This document shows, piece after piece, positions 39,737 through 58,437 of a DNA stretch of 64,000 nt (position 1 is the first letter of the stretch; each line of letters begins with the position of its first letter). The translations under genes and the position numbers were made by a program. The notes below the pieces were generated by a model that saw only the letters and a program-made list of their open reading frames with translations, made no database searches and had not been told where the DNA came from. Source of the stretch: a virus (Duplodnaviria; Caudoviricetes); the IMG/VR virus record IMGVR_UViG_3300028887_000070, positions 1 to 64,000 of that record; one strand, written 5' to 3'.

Positions 39737-42097
39737 TTAATAGTCATAGTAGAAGTCGTCTTCATCATCGTCATCCACACTACTGTATGGATCATTCATG
39801 TCCTTATAGAACTGGTCTATAGTACCAAGCATACTATACTGATTTGCAGGATCCTCCAACTCTTCTATAGGCTTGTTAAACTTCTGGCTGTATGCCTTTC
39901 TACCTACTGGAGTAGAGAGAATCTTCTGAAGAGCCTCTTGGTCTTCTTGTCTCTGCTGCTCTAACCAGTCCTTATAGAGCATAGTACCATCATCAAGGTC
40001 CTTAAGCTGCTGCTCTACTCTACCATGCATTCCCTCAAGGTCGCTAGAGATATTGATTCCCTCTGTAGCCTCGAAGCTCTGAAAGATAGGCTCTTCAGCT
40101 TCATGCTGTTCAGTCTGGAGGTTAGGTATTCTGATACCCCAGTTCTCTGTCACGTTCTTACCGTAGTACAGAGGATAGAGTGAAAGGAGATAAGAGAATA
40201 CTGCGTCATCGTGGCTCTGAGCAGAATGATCGATTCTACCAGTCTTCTTCACCTCAAGGTTCTTCAGCTCTTCATATATGATAGGAGATACGAATTTGTC
40301 CTTATGGTCTTCCATTCTAAGCATGAGAAGATCCATGAGCTGTTCTCTGACTATCTTGGTGTTGTCGAGTCCATAGACTCTAGTAAGTTGTTTCTTACGA
40401 TTGATATGGACTCCGTCATACTTCTCTTCTATAGTCCTCTCCTTTATCTCATAGTAGAGATTGGACTTTATCTTAGACTTGAGAAGCTTTGCTAGTACAC
40501 CTGTACCTACACCGTTACGCTCGACTACTACCAGAGCATTTGGTATCCAGTTAGTTACCACATCATAGATGACTCTAGCGAAGTCGATAGTGGAGATATA
40601 GTTACAGTTGAAGTCTGCCATAAGCTTAGACGTTGTAGAGTCTGTTATACTCATAGCAGATGAGTCCTTATTGTAACCAGCAGCAACGTCACATCCAACG
40701 ATAGGAGCAATACCTGGTCTGAGCTCTTCGTATACATTGAGAAGGAATGCTCCGACATAGACTTGCTTCTTAGGCTGCTTAACGAATCTACCAACGATAT
40801 CGAGCTGCTCTTTAGTGAACGGTGAGTTCTCTGCAGACATAGCCCACTCGAGAAGGAACTCTCGACGGATGTCTGTCCATTTGTACTCTTGTTCACGGCA
40901 ACGATCTTTGAACCACTCTTCTGAATAACCAAGCTGTTGATAAGTAGTCTTGATATGTACGAAGATACTCTTCTCGTTGGAGTTGAGTATATTAGTAAGC
41001 TCTTGAAGTGAAAGGTCATACCAGAGTTCAGAGAACGGAGTCATATTGCTTCTCATATCATACATATACTTACCGAACTCATCAGAGATAAATCCAGGTG
41101 TAGATGTCAGACAGAGACCATGAGGAGCTCCATTATCACGACAGTTTCTGAAGGCTCTAGTCATGGCAGGCATTGCATTAGAGAGCGACTCTCCAAGGAA
41201 TGGGAAGAACGCAGACTCGTCGAGCCAACAGTTAGTGATAGTACGACCTCTGAGGAGGGAGATAGCAGCAGTCTTAGAGGTTGCTCTAGCGAGTGCTTCT
41301 ATCTTGTTGAAGTTGATTGGGTGCTGTACATAAGATACAGTATTACGGGCCTTGAGCTTCTTACCATTCTGGCCAAATGCCTGATCGAATCTAAGGTAAG
41401 ATGGCAGAGCCTGTATAATCTTCTTCATATCATCAAGGTTTCTCTTAGCATCGTCCAGCTTCTTGTTAAGGAAGACCATGTTAGCGTTTCGAGAACCGAA
41501 GTTGTATACCCATGAATACCATACTTCACATCCTACAGTTTTACCAGTCTGACGAGGCTGCTCATGGTACACATTAAGAGACAGCGTAAAGCAGAAGTTA
41601 AGGGCTAGATTTCCTCTGTCAAGTTTATACCTGACGTAGGGTCCACCCTGGCTCTGTACTCTAACGACTTCTCTGATGTAGTAGAAGAAGTTACGTTGAC
41701 ACTCTATGAAGATCTTCTGCTTCATGAACAGAGGAAGCTTAGGATCATAGGGATCTACATTAGCAAGATCCTTATCAAAGAGTATAAGGAAGAACTTATT
41801 GTTCTTGATTCCTATAGCTTTCAGATAGTAGTGCATATCCAGAAAGCTTTGGTTCTTAGTATTCATCTGAAAGTAGACAGTAGACCTTTGTCCCGTAAGA
41901 GGATCAGTCATCACATTCTTGTTCTGACTAGGAGGTACAAAGGGTATAGTCTTTTTAGCTTTCATTTGTGATGGATCAATGTATTGATTAGTCTGAACTG
42001 TTCCATCGTAGAAGATCTCTGACTGATTAGAACCAGTATAAGTACGGTCTTCTTTAGCAGTCTCTTCTTCAAGAACGAGTTCGATTGTACTTGCCAT
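39737..42097 (-). CDS. terL: Terminase large subunit
   Basis: Walker A PRQTGKT, Walker B WLDES, coupling motif TST, nuclease GCDVAAG and HDDAV. Confidence 0.92.
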   Translation of the reverse strand: MASTIELVLEEETAKEDRTYTGSNQSEIFYDGTVQTNQYIDPSQMKAKKTIPFVPPSQNKNVMTDPLTGQRSTVYFQMNTKNQSFLDMHYYLKAIGIKNNKFFLILFDKDLANVDPYDPKLPLFMKQKIFIECQRNFFYYIREVVRVQSQGGPYVRYKLDRGNLALNFCFTLSLNVYHEQPRQTGKTVGCEVWYSWVYNFGSRNANMVFLNKKLDDAKRNLDDMKKIIQALPSYLRFDQAFGQNGKKLKARNTVSYVQHPINFNKIEALARATSKTAAISLLRGRTITNCWLDESAFFPFLGESLSNAMPAMTRAFRNCRDNGAPHGLCLTSTPGFISDEFGKYMYDMRSNMTPFSELWYDLSLQELTNILNSNEKSIFVHIKTTYQQLGYSEEWFKDRCREQEYKWTDIRREFLLEWAMSAENSPFTKEQLDIVGRFVKQPKKQVYVGAFLLNVYEELRPGIAPIVGCDVAAGYNKDSSAMSITDSTTSKLMADFNCNYISTIDFARVIYDVVTNWIPNALVVVERNGVGTGVLAKLLKSKIKSNLYYEIKERTIEEKYDGVHINRKKQLTRVYGLDNTKIVREQLMDLLMLRMEDHKDKFVSPIIYEELKNLEVKKTGRIDHSAQSHDDAVFSYLLSLYPLYYGKNVTENWGIRIPNLQTEQHEAEEPIFQSFEATEGINISSDLEGMHGRVEQQLKDLDDGTMLYKDWLEQQRQEDQEALQKILSTPVGRKAYSQKFNKPIEELEDPANQYSMLGTIDQFYKDMNDPYSSVDDDDEDDFYYDY

Positions 42098-42157
42098 AAT
42101 AACACCTCTTTCTGTAGTTTGATACAGTGTAATGAGTGGGCTCTCAATAGCCCTCTT

Positions 42158-42169
42158 TACGGAGATGTT
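42158..42169 (-). promoter_or_regulatory. Late promoter (terminase)
   Basis: AACA-TCTCCG-TA. Confidence 0.7.
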
Positions 42170-42174
42170 CGACA

Positions 42175-42371
42175 AGAAAAAATAACCTCTTAGAAGAGGA
42201 GTATCAGCGATATGCTATGTGGAGTAGGAACCACATATGTGCCGCATATCGCTGGATACTGAGTGACGACCAAGTCGCCACGGAAAGGAGACTACAGGTC
42301 ATTTGGAAACCTGCAGATAGACATAGTTTTTAACTGCTTCATCTACCTTGTGCCTCGGCAGAGAAGTTGTC
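42175..42371 (-). ncRNA. Structured 3' trailer with anti-SD fold-back segment and terminator
   Basis: Several long stems; 13-nt complement to the upstream SD region at 42284-42296; terminator CCTCT...AGAGG plus T tract. Confidence 0.5.
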
Positions 42372-42905
42372 TTAGAATTCTTCTTTAAAGAATACTGATG
42401 CGTTTTCGGTAGCAACGGATAGTGATGCTATATCTCCATTGTAGTTATATACACGGAGATCGAATCTAGCGTCCGCAAGGTATGATGCCATACCGTAGAG
42501 CAGCACTGCTGCTCTTTTATTGAATCTTTTATTCTGCCATACAGTGTTTAAAAGATAGTCTTCAAAGACGACATCTTCCCACTTTATAACATTAAGCCAT
42601 TCGCAGTCAGTTGGTCTAACAGTGCCGAGCCACTCGATAAGATTATCTACTTCAGCCCAGCTTACGATATATGCTAAAGCGGAAAGCGCATTGTATGGGT
42701 CTGTGTGTTTCACTGCTTCTACAAAGGCTACTACAGCCTTGCAGAACTTTCTGGAATCCAGAATACTATCAGTATCTGGTACTCCAGCGACCAGGATATC
42801 ACCATATTCATTTTGGGTGACGAACAGTTCTGCAATCTTATTGCAGATCTCTTCAGTCGAATATGTGCATCCAGATTCAACCTTGTTGTTAATGTTAGCT
42901 TTCAT
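42372..42905 (-). CDS. Hypothetical early protein lacking a proximal SD
   Basis: 177 aa ORF between two structured RNA segments. Confidence 0.6.
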   Translation of the reverse strand: MKANINNKVESGCTYSTEEICNKIAELFVTQNEYGDILVAGVPDTDSILDSRKFCKAVVAFVEAVKHTDPYNALSALAYIVSWAEVDNLIEWLGTVRPTDCEWLNVIKWEDVVFEDYLLNTVWQNKRFNKRAAVLLYGMASYLADARFDLRVYNYNGDIASLSVATENASVFFKEEF

Positions 42906-43090
42906 AATGTATGCTCAGTAGGTGCTACACGCTTGACGGGCGACAAGCTGAGCGAATATAGTCTCCTTTGGAGACATCCTTTACAGGATACACCCTTTGT
43001 TACCTGCTGCATGAGATCCCGTTCTCCTTGCGGGACCATAGATAATTTACAGCTAGGTGCATGAAGATTCGATCGTGATCCTCATACACC
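42906..43090 (-). promoter_or_regulatory. Structured 5' leader with sequestered SD
   Basis: Five hairpins; AAAGGAGA sequestered locally in GTCTC-CAAAG-GAGAC. Confidence 0.5.
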
Positions 43091-43093
43091 TCA

Positions 43094-43103
43094 ATGATAT
43101 ACA
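43094..43103 (-). promoter_or_regulatory. Early promoter
   Basis: TGTATATCAT followed by a long hairpin. Confidence 0.55.
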
Positions 43104-43188
43104 ACCCATATAGCTAACTTTTACGATACCCCCTACATATATATAATCAGTGCCTACATGGACACTTAAAACAAAGGAGGACACACAT

Positions 43189-44016
43189 ATGCCACTTGGT
43201 AACAACTCATACAACAAGGGTAACTCAAACGGAAAGAAGAACGACTTCTCTCCTACAACCTACTCAAACATAAGGATCTCTAACTACAACTCTACTGTAG
43301 ATCCTACATCAGTCTCCTTCGCATTCTGGAAGGGAATGCTTAGGATATCAATCACACCTATCAAGAAGAGTGCAGACGGAGGTTACAACTTCGACAAGGA
43401 CAACTCTATAGAAGTATACCTCACTCCCACCAGAGCTGCTCTCTTCCTCAACTATCTCAAGCAGTTCAGAAAGGACCCCAATGCATACATTAACTTAGGT
43501 GTTACTTCAGGTAATGCTATCATCTATGTAACAAACGGTGCAGAGGAGTTCGAAGGACAGGACGGAAACGGAATCTTTCTTATTGTAAAGAGTCTTGACG
43601 AGAAGGGTAACATCGACTCTGAGATTGCTTACCAGTTCAAGACTACACCTGATAAGGATAACTTTGGTATCATCAACTACAAGGGCGGTACAGACTTCAC
43701 TAAGGACTATGAGTACACAAAGTTCCTTGACTATGATATCTTCACCAACTCAATAGCTCAGTACGTTAATAGCAATAGCAGTGCAGTTGCAGCTACAGTT
43801 GTTGACGCTACTAGATTCTCATTCAACAGTATCATCGGCAAACTGACAAGCATTCAGGAGAACCTCGGTATCGATACTGGAAGTGGATACAAGAGAAAGT
43901 CGAACGCATCAGCATTCTTCTCAAATAACGGCAATGAGTCTACATCATCTTCAACTGTTCATAATAGTGATAAGATTGAAGAAGTGGACGACTACCAGGA
44001 TCTCATAGACATGTAA
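43189..44016 (+). CDS. Probable single-stranded DNA-binding protein
   Basis: Beta-rich core with low-complexity then acidic C-terminal tail (EEVDDYQDLIDM); function inferred from architecture. Confidence 0.4.
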   Translation: MPLGNNSYNKGNSNGKKNDFSPTTYSNIRISNYNSTVDPTSVSFAFWKGMLRISITPIKKSADGGYNFDKDNSIEVYLTPTRAALFLNYLKQFRKDPNAYINLGVTSGNAIIYVTNGAEEFEGQDGNGIFLIVKSLDEKGNIDSEIAYQFKTTPDKDNFGIINYKGGTDFTKDYEYTKFLDYDIFTNSIAQYVNSNSSAVAATVVDATRFSFNSIIGKLTSIQENLGIDTGSGYKRKSNASAFFSNNGNESTSSSTVHNSDKIEEVDDYQDLIDM

Positions 44017-58119: not shown

Positions 58120-58370
58120 AAAAAGGATGCTGGGTCCATGTGCGGACCCAGCCTATTCTCTGTGTGTGACGAGATAAATATAGTTTTCGAACAAGTCATG
58201 TAGCAGTACTAATTACACGACTCGGCTTTTAAGACTTGGCACTCTTAGTAAGAACCGCCGCAAGTTTCAAAATCGTCCATGTGTCACACCTCCTTTCTGT
58301 GGCTCATACACTCTAAAGGAGACAAGGAGTGTACAAGATCTGCTATTATCTATATCTTTAAACGCAGACA
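58120..58370 (-). ncRNA. Candidate structured early RNA carrying an 11-aa micro-ORF (58245-58280, MDDFETCGGSY)
   Basis: Early promoter at 58376-58385; SD AAAGGAGGT; stems; terminator at 58120-58153. Confidence 0.45.
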
Positions 58371-58375
58371 TTTTA

Positions 58376-58385
58376 ATAATATATA
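58376..58385 (-). promoter_or_regulatory. Early promoter
   Basis: TATATATTAT. Confidence 0.6.
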
Positions 58386-58437
58386 GCCCTAAACACGTAG
58401 TTTAACGACGGTAGGATTTCCCTACCGTCGATTCAAA

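What the first reader, a model, noticed from the sequence alone, without database searches (positions are those of the whole stretch)
42175..43103. Fold-back-inhibited mRNA: an ORF enclosed by mutually pairing structured ends
Seen on the minus strand: early promoter, a 185-nt five-hairpin leader, a 177-aa ORF with no proximal SD, a ~195-nt structured trailer and a terminator. The only SD (AAAGGAGA, about 56 nt upstream) is hidden locally in GTCTC-CAAAG-GAGAC and separated from the AUG by a GCTCAG/CTGAGC hairpin. AAAGGAGACUAUA (42969-42957) pairs over 13 nt with trailer UGUAGUCUCCUUU (42296-42284). A second long-range helix links 43054-43038 with 42346-42332 and crosses the first. Known: sequential 5' then 3' SD sequestration is the hallmark of type I toxin mRNAs (hok, aapA). 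Inference: a timed, processing-activated early effector, unusually for a globular protein. Alternatively, a large pseudoknotted RNA (GACUA/UAGUC recalls group I intron P7) with an inserted ORF.
Basis: partly seen in the sequence, partly recalled or inferred. Interest (0 to 1): 0.8.

Follow-up and report, generated by a model that had tools for sequence, protein, structure and literature searches.

The report
Phage gene with two folded UTRs
A small orphan gene of a giant cow-rumen phage sits between two real, previously undescribed folded RNA segments, but the proposed pairing of the two mRNA ends that would switch the gene off has no evolutionary support and is not the core of the system.

Summary
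The anatomy is real. An AR9-type early-like promoter puts +1 at G43087. A 182-nt leader, an SD-less 177-aa ORF (42905-42372), a 196-nt 3' UTR and a terminator (42199-42176) follow. I compared 15 to 17 related cassettes from metagenomes.

Supported:
- The local leader helices covary (0 of 500 shuffles reach the observed values).
- The 3' UTR holds an H-type pseudoknot 5-10 nt behind the stop codon (100% paired, 7 of 11 pairs changed on both sides), plus further hairpins conserved in shape.
- The last ~100 nt of the leader stay 77-95% identical while the protein falls to 27% identity. In relatives the same module also heads an unrelated 298-aa gene that has no matching trailer.

Not supported:
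- The 13-bp leader-trailer helix exists (12 Watson-Crick + 1 G-U) and is kept in 12 of 15 cassettes. It is no better than chance in one sequence (22/300 and 43/300 shuffles), shows no covariation (99-272 of 500 shuffles) and is lost in one clade. Changes in its leader arm are compensated locally.
- The second long-range helix is rejected.
- The "only SD" is not an SD in many relatives.
- Rfam has no group I match and there is no exon context.

Best reading: autonomous regulatory UTR modules, with the fold-back at most a lineage-specific extra. Other agents of this scan had already noted the shared 5' half of the leader elsewhere in this genome.

The parts
43094..43125 (-). Promoter: upstream box CGTAAAAGT (43125-43117) and TGTATATCAT (43103-43094); predicted +1 = G43087, six nt downstream
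   Evidence: The same two boxes occur before three other small genes of the genome, at 129281, 168732 and 178162. TATAT(C/A)AT-N6-G resembles the AR9 early consensus AAATATATATTAT-N6-G (PMC5312081). An RNA contig of a bovine metatranscriptome ends at 43075 and none extends upstream. The timing class is inferred.
43059..43087 (-). H1: 10-bp hairpin that starts at the predicted +1 (GUAUGAGGAU / AUCUUCAUGC)
   Evidence: 90.6% of cells paired; 2 pairs changed on both sides and 4 on one side (helix 1).
43002..43058 (-). H2/H2b: long helix enclosing hairpin GGUCCCG/CGGGAUC (43037-43015), whose loop carries the invariant GGAGA. Together with H1 this forms the leader half shared with other early cassettes
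   Evidence: Helices 2 and 3 have 3 + 3 pairs changed on both sides. The homologous module at 129k, 168k and 178k has other sequences but the same helices.
42906..43001 (-). Leader module 2: P2 (42989-42976), P3 (42975-42961), P5 (42953-42948 with 42918-42913) enclosing the 3-bp P4 (42942-42940 with 42932-42930), the invariant GUGUAGCACCUACUGAGC, and a 7-nt spacer to the AUG
   Evidence: P2, P3 and P4 covary; P5 never varies. Module 2 is 77-95% identical while the protein drops to 27%. Covariance model R1 finds it once in G000 and twice each in G001 and G002.
42372..42905 (-). ORF177: orphan protein, invariant UAUG start, no SD
   Evidence: Homologs range from 94% down to 27% identity with in-frame length changes. 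AlphaFold2 gives pLDDT 82 and pTM 0.80. No Pfam, PHROG, PDB, BFVD or ESM Atlas match. An exhaustive profile search finds only 6 related clusters at E <= 1e-10.
42316..42361 (-). H-type pseudoknot of the 3' UTR: S1 CUGC/GCAG (42361-42358 with 42337-42334) and S2 GGUAGAU/GUCUAUC (42347-42341 with 42322-42316), 10 nt behind the stop codon
   Evidence: 100% of cells paired; 3 of 4 and 4 of 7 pairs changed on both sides; 0 of 500 shuffles reach the observed values. The spacer to the stop codon is 5-10 nt in all clades.
42293..42315 (-). Hairpin Hb (UGCAGGU / ACCUGUA)
   Evidence: Relatives carry UGCUAUG/CAUAGUA at the same place. The hairpin is absent in the L018 clade.
42282..42292 (-). Single-stranded pyrimidine tract GUCUCCUUUCC, anti-SD-like; the core of the trailer arm of the proposed long-range helix (42296-42284)
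   Evidence: Nearly invariant between flanking helices that covary. Variants are GUCUCAUUUCC, UCCUCAUUUCU and UACUCUUUUCU.
42201..42281 (-). Hairpins Hc (42281-42263) and Hd (42259-42201, a long bulged hairpin)
   Evidence: Hc is kept in the long-trailer cassettes with four different sequences. The Hd core has 6 pairs changed on both sides (helices 3 and 4).
42176..42199 (-). Intrinsic terminator (CCUCU-UCUA-AGAGG plus U-run)
   Evidence: Relatives have other stems followed by the same GGUUAUUUUUU.
42158..42169 (-). Late promoter AACA-N6-TA of the terminase large subunit gene (39737-42097); marks the downstream border of the unit
   Evidence: Sequence read. The AR9 late consensus is AACA-N6-TA/G (PMC5312081). 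TerL is identified by PHROG 32359 at 4.6e-52.

Best explanation
This is a monocistronic, early-type accessory-gene cassette of an AR9-like rumen jumbo phage. Its mRNA carries two independent, conserved, structured UTR modules.

Shown:
- The RNA is predicted to start at the foot of a +1 hairpin. A three-way module follows that is shared with three other early cassettes.
- Next comes a ~100-nt, nearly invariant module (P2, P3, P4, P5). Its closing helix GCUCAG/CUGAGC covers positions -13 to -8, where an SD would normally lie, in front of an invariant SD-less UAUG.
- The 3' UTR holds an H-type pseudoknot 5-10 nt behind the stop codon, up to three further hairpins, an exposed pyrimidine tract and a terminator.

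Inferred:
- The first leader half is a general stability or expression element.
- Module 2 is an autonomous translational operator, either a site for a trans-acting factor or a refolding switch, that gates SD-independent initiation. It works without the trailer.
- The 3' UTR is a stability or processing element tied to this gene. Because the pseudoknot lies so close to the stop codon, terminating ribosomes should have to melt it, which would couple its fold to translation.
- The 12-13 bp complementarity between the pyrimidine tract and the 3' arm of P3 is at most a lineage-specific additional 5'-3' contact, not the core mechanism.
For: Local helices:
- Leader: 91.5% of cells paired, 15 pairs changed on both sides, 0 of 500 shuffles; slid controls 32-46% paired.
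- Trailer pseudoknot and Hd: 96.7% paired, 13 pairs changed on both sides, 0 of 500 shuffles.
- Hb and Hc are kept in shape with different sequences.

Module 2 is constrained and autonomous:
- It is 77-95% identical while CDS nucleotide identity falls to 58% and protein identity to 27%. It is 80% identical in front of an unrelated 298-aa gene.
- Second copies occur in G001 and G002. The G001 copy (L032) has a 3' UTR without any partner for P3. The G002 copy (L042) has a broken ORF, so its 3' UTR could not be read.
- In the L018 and L036 cassettes the P3 change GAGAC > GAAAC is compensated in the local arm (GUCUC > GUUUC), not in the trailer.

Context:
- The promoter and first leader half recur at 129k, 168k and 178k, each followed by a normal SD.
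- 77% of crude gene starts have an SD core, against 13% of random positions, so the SD-less start is unusual here.
- Leader and CDS are present in RNA-library contigs: 42704-43075 at depth 28, and 42405-42952.
Against: - No trans factor or ligand is identified.
- P5 and the GUGUAGCACC block never vary, so their pairing is untested.
- The sample is small (15-17 distinct sequences in about three lineages), so double changes are few independent events.
- Thermodynamic folding of full-length mRNAs does favour the long-range helix in 6 of 8 cassettes (P 0.56-1.0). A larger role for the fold-back is therefore not excluded.
- The RNA evidence is contigs only and could include DNA carry-over.
- The host is unknown, so SD-independent initiation cannot be judged directly.
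Confidence: 0.45

Rival explanations
1. Fold-back inhibition. P3 forms first. Once the 3' UTR is transcribed, its anti-SD-like tract invades P3 and closes the mRNA into a translationally inert form. 3' processing or ribosome traffic later opens it (hok/aapA-like in logic, icaR-like in chemistry).
For: - 12-13 bp complementarity is present in 12 of 15 cassettes.
- The trailer arm core is the one conserved single-stranded stretch of the 3' UTR.
- Full-length folds give the helix P 0.56-1.0 in 6 of 8 cassettes.
- L024 carries G>U in the leader and C>A in the trailer at paired positions. Two C>U changes keep G-U pairs.
- The same 9-mer GUCUCCUUU sits in a hairpin loop just upstream of a real SD in another early transcript at about 58.3 kb.
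Against: - There is no covariation signal: 208, 272 and 99 of 500 shuffles reach the observed values.
- It is not beyond chance in one sequence.
- The G>C change (L004, L007, L010, L014) is compensated inside local P3 and the G>A change (L012) is not compensated at all; neither is compensated in the trailer.
- The trailer C>A variant also occurs in the L018 clade without a leader partner.
- Complementarity is absent in L018, L034, L036 and L032, although the leader is conserved there.
- The target is 56 nt from the AUG and is not an SD in many relatives.
Confidence: 0.2
2. Stability elements only. The 5' hairpins and the 3' pseudoknot and hairpins merely protect a short early mRNA from 5' and 3' exonucleases. 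The leader-trailer complementarity arises because an SD-like and an anti-SD-like tract happen to be present.
For: - The +1 hairpin and a long structured 3' end fit known stabilisers of Bacillota mRNAs (established knowledge).
- There is no covariation for the long-range helix.
- SD-like tracts are common in this genome.
Against: Plain stabilisers tolerate sequence change as long as stems persist. Module 2 instead keeps about 50 invariant positions in junctions and loops across cassettes whose proteins share 27% identity or nothing at all. The exposed pyrimidine tract is also conserved while its flanks change.
Confidence: 0.2
3. The 3' UTR is a small RNA in its own right. After decay of the coding part, a 5'-3' exonuclease stalls at the pseudoknot (xrRNA-like). 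This leaves a stable roughly 185-nt RNA whose exposed anti-SD-like tract acts in trans on SD regions of phage or host mRNAs.
For: The architecture is a pseudoknot at the 5' border directly behind the stop codon, an exposed pyrimidine 'seed' between hairpins, stable hairpins and a terminator. The resemblance to flavivirus xrRNA/sfRNA and to 3'-UTR-derived sRNAs comes from general knowledge only.
Against: - No RNA ends are mapped, and the RNA contigs laid did not cover the trailer, which proves nothing either way.
- The tract loses anti-SD character in L024, L018 and L036.
- An H-type knot with a 4-bp S1 is not a known exonuclease-resistant fold.
Confidence: 0.1
4. DNA-level inverted repeat: the two 13-bp arms are sites for an invertase or a DNA-binding regulator that flank an invertible or exchangeable gene segment.
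For: There is an exact 11-bp inverted repeat. CDS plus 3' UTR form the variable island between conserved flanks.
Against: - All 20+ loci have the same orientation.
- Arm differences are transitions that keep G-U pairs in RNA but would be mismatches between DNA sites.
- The boundaries of the variable island (about 42187 and 42895) do not coincide with the repeats.
Confidence: 0.03
5. A large pseudoknotted ribozyme (group I-like intron) with an inserted ORF.
For: Only the crossing topology of the two proposed long-range helices and a GACUA/UAGUC resemblance.
Against: - No Rfam match at gathering score or at E <= 10.
- One of the two crossing helices is not conserved.
- There are no exons. Upstream lies a divergent promoter region. 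Downstream lie a terminator and the TerL promoter, and TerL is complete with its own SD and AUG.
Confidence: 0.01

Closest known systems
icaR mRNA of Staphylococcus aureus: a 3'-UTR anti-SD motif pairs with the 5' UTR (PMC3868564, found)
   Same: Both have a long 3' UTR on an mRNA for a globular protein, with a pyrimidine anti-SD-like tract complementary to a purine tract of the same mRNA's leader.
   Different: In icaR the target is the working SD next to the AUG. Here the target lies 56 nt upstream inside a hairpin, is not an SD in many relatives, and the pairing shows no covariation and is missing in one clade.
hok/Sok and aapA/IsoA type I toxin mRNAs (fold-back inhibition, sequential folding; general knowledge)
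   Same: The idea is shared: a 5'-3' long-range helix forms only after full transcription, competes with a local 5' hairpin and keeps the mRNA inert.
   Different: Those toxins are hydrophobic peptides under 60 aa, controlled by an antisense RNA and 3' trimming. Here the product is a 177-aa folded protein, no antisense gene is evident, and the helix is unsupported.
B. subtilis hbs mRNA 5'/3'-UTR interaction and 5' stabilisers of Bacillota mRNAs (PMC5737220, found; aprE and ermC leaders from general knowledge)
   Same: Both have a structured 5' UTR that begins with a hairpin at or near +1, and end-to-end contact is proposed to control ribonuclease access.
   Different: hbs relies on a strong SD with an initiating ribosome as roadblock. 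Here there is no SD, and a large invariant module sits in front of the AUG.
Shared promoter-plus-leader cassettes of this same phage (earlier notes of this scan) and PeSL cassettes of T4-type phages (Arbiol et al. 2010, named in note e1-5496209; not read here)
   Same: The promoter boxes and the H1/H2 leader half are the same as at 129k, 168k and 178k. Each unit is self-contained, from promoter to terminator.
   Different: This cassette adds a second, about 100-nt module in place of the SD and a 196-nt pseudoknotted 3' UTR. The other three have a normal SD and short 3' ends.
Stop-codon-proximal H-type pseudoknots (MuLV readthrough signal) and preQ1-I riboswitch knots with an A-rich tail (general knowledge)
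   Same: Both are H-type knots with a short spacer (5-10 nt) after a stop codon, with an A-rich third loop (UUAAAAACUAU).
   Different: The in-frame extension is only about 10 codons, and its frame relative to the knot is not conserved (spacers of 5 to 10 nt). No preQ1 model matches even at E <= 10.

Membership tests
Type I toxin-antitoxin fold-back mRNA (hok, aapA) | Small (under about 60 aa) hydrophobic toxic peptide | tested here: not met
   The ORF has 177 aa with a confident alpha/beta fold (pLDDT 82). Homologs have 176-205 aa.
Type I toxin-antitoxin fold-back mRNA (hok, aapA) | 5'-3' long-range helix maintained by selection | tested here: inconclusive
   Complementarity holds in 12 of 15 cassettes, but covariation equals the shuffles and the helix is lost in one clade.
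Type I toxin-antitoxin fold-back mRNA (hok, aapA) | Cis-encoded antisense RNA antitoxin and activation by 3' processing | not testable with these tools
   Sigma-70-like hits on the opposite strand are at chance level (2 found, 2.7 expected). No end-mapped RNA data are available.
icaR-type 5'-3' UTR translational repression | The 3'-UTR tract pairs with the functional SD or start region of the same mRNA | tested here: not met
   The target lies 56 nt upstream of the AUG. It reads CGAG, UGAG, GAAG, GGAA or AGAG in relatives. No SD lies next to the AUG.
Group I intron | Match to the conserved catalytic core (P3-P9) | tested here: not met
   No Rfam family matched at gathering score in the window, or at E <= 10 on 42050-43250.
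Group I intron | Insertion within a host gene, with flanking exons | tested here: not met
   Upstream is a divergent promoter region. Downstream are a terminator, a late promoter and a complete TerL gene.
tmRNA (an ORF between pairing ends) | tRNA-like domain formed from the 5' and 3' ends | tested here: not met
   ARAGORN finds no tRNA or tmRNA in the window.
Shared early-cassette leader of this phage | Promoter boxes CGTAAAAGT ... TGTATAT(C/A)AT, then H1 and the H2 three-way module with a purine loop | tested here: met
   nhmmer and motif scans link 43125 with 129281, 168732 and 178162. The helices covary.
preQ1-I riboswitch | Match to the aptamer model, and a position in a 5' UTR | tested here: not met
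   No match at E <= 10. The knot lies in a 3' UTR.
Programmed stop-codon readthrough signal | Conserved in-frame extension beyond the stop codon | tested here: not met
   Extensions are about 10-15 codons long. They are in different frames relative to the knot because the spacers differ.

The most novel reading that the evidence does not exclude
The mRNA of a globular early phage protein is a closed, self-timing device. Translation is gated by an SD-less leader operator. The 3' UTR senses ribosome arrival through a stop-codon-proximal pseudoknot. Its anti-SD-like tract then either locks the leader (5'-3' fold-back) or survives as an exonuclease-resistant small RNA that acts on SD regions in trans. 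That would be a bacterial-virus counterpart of eukaryotic-virus 3'-UTR devices.
Probability: 0.15. Interest if true: 0.8.

Novelty: new variant of a known kind. Interest (0 to 1): 0.5.

Why it matters
Structured UTRs of phage mRNAs are hardly catalogued, and long bacterial-type 3' UTRs with defined folds are rare. This locus offers two covariation-supported RNA motifs that are absent from Rfam.

The first is a leader module that replaces the Shine-Dalgarno sequence. It is conserved far more strongly than the rapidly evolving orphan genes it drives. The second is a pseudoknot placed directly behind a stop codon.

If module 2 proves to be an operator for a phage or host factor, it would define a small post-transcriptional regulon of fast-evolving accessory genes in AR9-like jumbo phages, possibly genes of host interaction. 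The pseudoknot is a testable case of coupling between translation termination and 3'-UTR structure.

The report also gives a concrete negative. An eye-catching 13-bp end-to-end helix is not supported once relatives are compared.

Tried and rejected
Searches that found nothing:
- Rfam at gathering score and at E <= 10 gave only noise.
- ARAGORN found no tRNA or tmRNA.
- blastn of the region against GenBank phages gave no match.
- The back-translated search of IMG/VR with ORF177 found nothing. Relatives were reached through the protein database and exact DNA motifs instead.
- Foldseek against PDB and BFVD, VIA-align wide and ESM Atlas gave no credible fold match: best Z 4.7, TM 0.36.

Methods that did not help:
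- RNAduplex on whole UTRs produced meaningless full-length duplexes. I replaced it with run and local-duplex statistics.
- RNAalifold on the raw MAFFT leader alignment missed H1 and mixed registers. I defined the helices by hand and counted them.

Readings considered and dropped:
- Pairing of the trailer tract with the GGAGA loop of H2b is only 7 bp in the window, 4-5 bp in relatives, and is broken by the L024 C>A change.
- A uORF starting at AUU after the P3 'SD' has 10 codons here but only 4 in L001, so it is not conserved.
- Stop-codon readthrough or -1 frameshifting at the pseudoknot was dropped: the extensions are short and the frame is not conserved.
- The trailer is not a leader of TerL, because the TerL late promoter lies downstream of the terminator.
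- Helix B.

RNA contigs: the trailer and the region upstream of 43075 were not covered in runs X1-X3. Gaps in contig cover prove nothing. X4 is a 7.2-kb contig of a diverged relative and may be DNA.
Full report
**Context.** The window is the first 64 kb of a 231,846-bp virus record. The finding lies between the terminase large subunit gene (39737-42097, minus strand; PHROG 32359 at 4.6e-52) and a divergent 275-aa gene (43189-44016, plus strand). A GroEL-like gene lies further on. Earlier notes of this scan call the phage an AR9-like rumen jumbo phage. The AR9 paper gives the early consensus AAATATATATTAT-N6-G and the late consensus AACA-N6-TA/G (PMC5312081). The RNA-library runs that hold the stretch or parts of it are three bovine gut metatranscriptomes and one from wastewater.

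**The observation.**
- ORF 42905-42372 with no SD core within 20 nt of the AUG.
- Hairpin GUCUCC-AAA-GGAGAC (42975-42961).
- GCUCAG/CUGAGC (42953-42948 and 42918-42913).
- A 196-nt trailer and a terminator at 42199-42186.

Leader and trailer fold better than shuffles, with z -3.6 and -7.5. The 13-nt complementarity 42969-42957 with 42296-42284 is exact: 12 Watson-Crick pairs and one G-U. In the single sequence it is not remarkable. The best local leader-trailer duplex (-20.2 kcal/mol) is reached by 22 of 300 shuffled trailers and 43 of 300 shuffled leaders.

**Relatives.** ORF177 has no Pfam or PHROG family. It does have homologs in metagenomes, from 94% down to 27% identity. I fetched their loci, and also loci holding the invariant 17-mer GTGTAGCACCTACTGAG. 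This gave 15 distinct TerL-adjacent cassettes, all in the same order and orientation. It also gave two cassettes at other genomic places (L032 in G001, L042 in G002).

**Promoter and first leader half.** nhmmer with the leader alignment found three weaker matches in the same genome. All four sites share CGTAAAAGT, a 13-14 nt spacer, TGTATAT(C/A)AT, six bases and a G, followed by two helices of like shape. The motif resembles the AR9 early consensus. It puts +1 at G43087, exactly at the foot of the 10-bp hairpin H1. An RNA contig (372 nt, depth 28) runs from 42704 to 43075 and none goes further upstream. The other three cassettes continue directly into a normal SD and AUG. In ORF177 a further ~100 nt (module 2) takes that place.

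**Local structure of the leader.** I counted a hand-defined structure (H1, H2, H2b, P2, P3, P4, P5) on a 14-sequence alignment.
- 91.5% of cells are paired and 15 pairs changed on both sides. None of 500 shuffles reaches the percentage paired, the double-change counts or the covariation score.
- Slid controls give 32-46% paired.
- P3 covaries clearly: C-G, G-C and U-G at its closing pair, and GUUUCC/GGAAAC in the L018 clade.
- P5 and the block GUGUAGCACCUACUGAGC never vary.

**Module 2 is under stronger constraint than the gene.** Against the window, module 2 is 77-95% identical in all cassettes. CDS nucleotide identity falls to 58% and protein identity to 27%. In L032 module 2 is 80% identical in front of a 298-aa protein that has no detectable similarity to ORF177 and no homolog in this genome. 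A covariance model of module 2 finds one copy here and two each in G001 and G002. The AUG, within an invariant UAUG, is fixed in all 17 sequences. A crude census gives an SD core before 77% of gene starts, against 13% of random positions. The SD-less start is therefore unusual for this phage.

**The 3' UTR.** Alignment of 13 trailers shows an H-type pseudoknot.
- S1 reads CUGC/GCAG, GGGG/CCCC (or CCUC) and UGGC/GCCA.
- S2 reads GGUAGAU/GUCUAUC, GGACGUU/AACGUCC and GGAGGGU/GCCCUCC.
- Every cell is paired, 7 of 11 pairs changed on both sides, and 0 of 500 shuffles reach the observed values.
- The knot begins 5-10 nt behind the stop codon in every clade. By inference from the size of the ribosomal mRNA channel, a terminating ribosome should have to open S1.

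Behind the knot come hairpin Hb, the tract GUCUCCUUUCC, hairpin Hc, the long hairpin Hd and the terminator. Hb and Hc keep their shape with unrelated sequences, whereas the tract between them hardly changes. The L018 clade has a shorter trailer: knot, tract variant, one long hairpin and the terminator.

**The first long-range helix.** Position by position, the 12 cassettes with the long trailer keep 11-13 Watson-Crick pairs of 13.

Informative changes:
- G>C in the leader (L004, L007, L010, L014) gives a C-C mismatch with the trailer and is compensated inside local P3.
- G>A (L012) is uncompensated.
- A>C in the trailer (L008, L027) is uncompensated.
- Two C>U changes keep G-U pairs.
- L024 has G>U in the leader and C>A in the trailer, which keeps the pair. 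That leader position is hypervariable (G, C, U and A all occur). The same trailer C>A also occurs in the L018 clade without a partner.

In L018, L034, L036 and L032 the complementarity is gone, although P3 and the following CUACAU are conserved. The formal count on a whole-cassette alignment gives 89.3% paired. It is indistinguishable from shuffles on every covariation measure (208, 272, 272, 192 and 99 of 500).

Thermodynamic folding of full-length mRNAs does put the helix in the ensemble:
- P 0.99 in the window.
- P 0.56-1.0 in six of eight cassettes.
- About 0 in L010 and 0.13 in L027.

The helix is physically plausible but not shown to be selected.

**The second long-range helix.** It consists of AGCUG with CAGUU and AUCUAU with GUAGAU. 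The leader arms belong to the covarying H2, and the trailer arms are S2 and S1 of the knot. When the trailer arms change in relatives, the leader stays constant. Rejected.

**The 'SD'.** AAAGGAGA becomes AAACGAGA, AAAUGAGA, AAAGAAGA, AAAGGAAA or AAAAGAGA in relatives. It is therefore not maintained as a ribosome-binding site. The only invariant GGAGA lies in the H2b loop, about 115 nt from the AUG.

**The protein.** AlphaFold2 with the family alignment gives a confident alpha/beta model (pLDDT 82, pTM 0.80). No convincing match appears in PDB, BFVD, the 48,000-chain wide search or the ESM Atlas. An exhaustive profile search of 1.8 billion representatives finds only six related clusters at E <= 1e-10. 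It is a clade-restricted, fast-evolving orphan and its function remains unknown. CDS plus 3' UTR form the variable island between the conserved leader and the conserved TerL promoter. A diverged relative's contig replaces 42187-42895 with 785 unlike bases.

**Reading.**
- Shown: the transcription-unit anatomy, two covariation-supported UTR structures, the autonomy and strong constraint of module 2, and the absence of support for either long-range helix.
- Inferred: module 2 is a translational operator that stands in for the SD. The 3' UTR is a stability or processing element coupled to termination. The end-to-end pairing is at most an accessory in some lineages.

The closest precedents are the icaR and hbs 5'-3' UTR interactions and the shared early leader of this same phage. 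It is a member of neither hok-type systems nor group I introns.

Noticed in passing
window 58120-58420 (-): Another early-type transcript carries the same 9-mer GUCUCCUUU, here in the loop of hairpin UACACUC...GAGUGUA. It lies directly upstream of a true SD (GAAAGGAGG) and an 11-codon ORF. The phage may therefore use this tract as a cis anti-SD elsewhere.
   Followed up: partly
L032 (G001:C1:89818-92834) and L042 (G002:C1:133257-136358): Relatives carry a second copy of the whole leader, a variant first half plus module 2, at another genomic place. In G001 it heads a 298-aa orphan unrelated to ORF177. In G002 the homologous ORF stops after 34 codons, which suggests a frameshift or assembly error. 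This genome has no such second copy.
   Followed up: partly
window 43136-43166: The divergent intergenic region holds ACATATATATAAT on the plus strand, close to the AR9 early consensus. This probably drives the 275-aa gene at 43189. Next to it is a conserved 6-bp hairpin (AGTGTC...GGCACT, 43166-43149).
   Followed up: no
window 42187-42895: A 7.2-kb contig from a wastewater RNA library is a relative at about 90-95% identity. It keeps the leader and TerL but replaces the CDS and 3' UTR with 785 unlike bases. The variable island is therefore bounded by the start codon region and the terminator.
   Followed up: partly
G000 129100-129330, 168550-168770, 177990-178200 (-): Three further cassettes share the promoter and the first leader half. 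Each also has a conserved GGRAACWAUGAAAGG box just before its SD. This box contains an out-of-frame AUG.
   Followed up: no
window 42497-42515: A perfect 8-bp palindrome with a 3-nt centre (AGAGCAGC-ACT-GCTGCTCT) lies inside the CDS. On the plus strand it scores as terminator-like, followed by TTTATT. It may simply encode KRAAVLLY.
   Followed up: no
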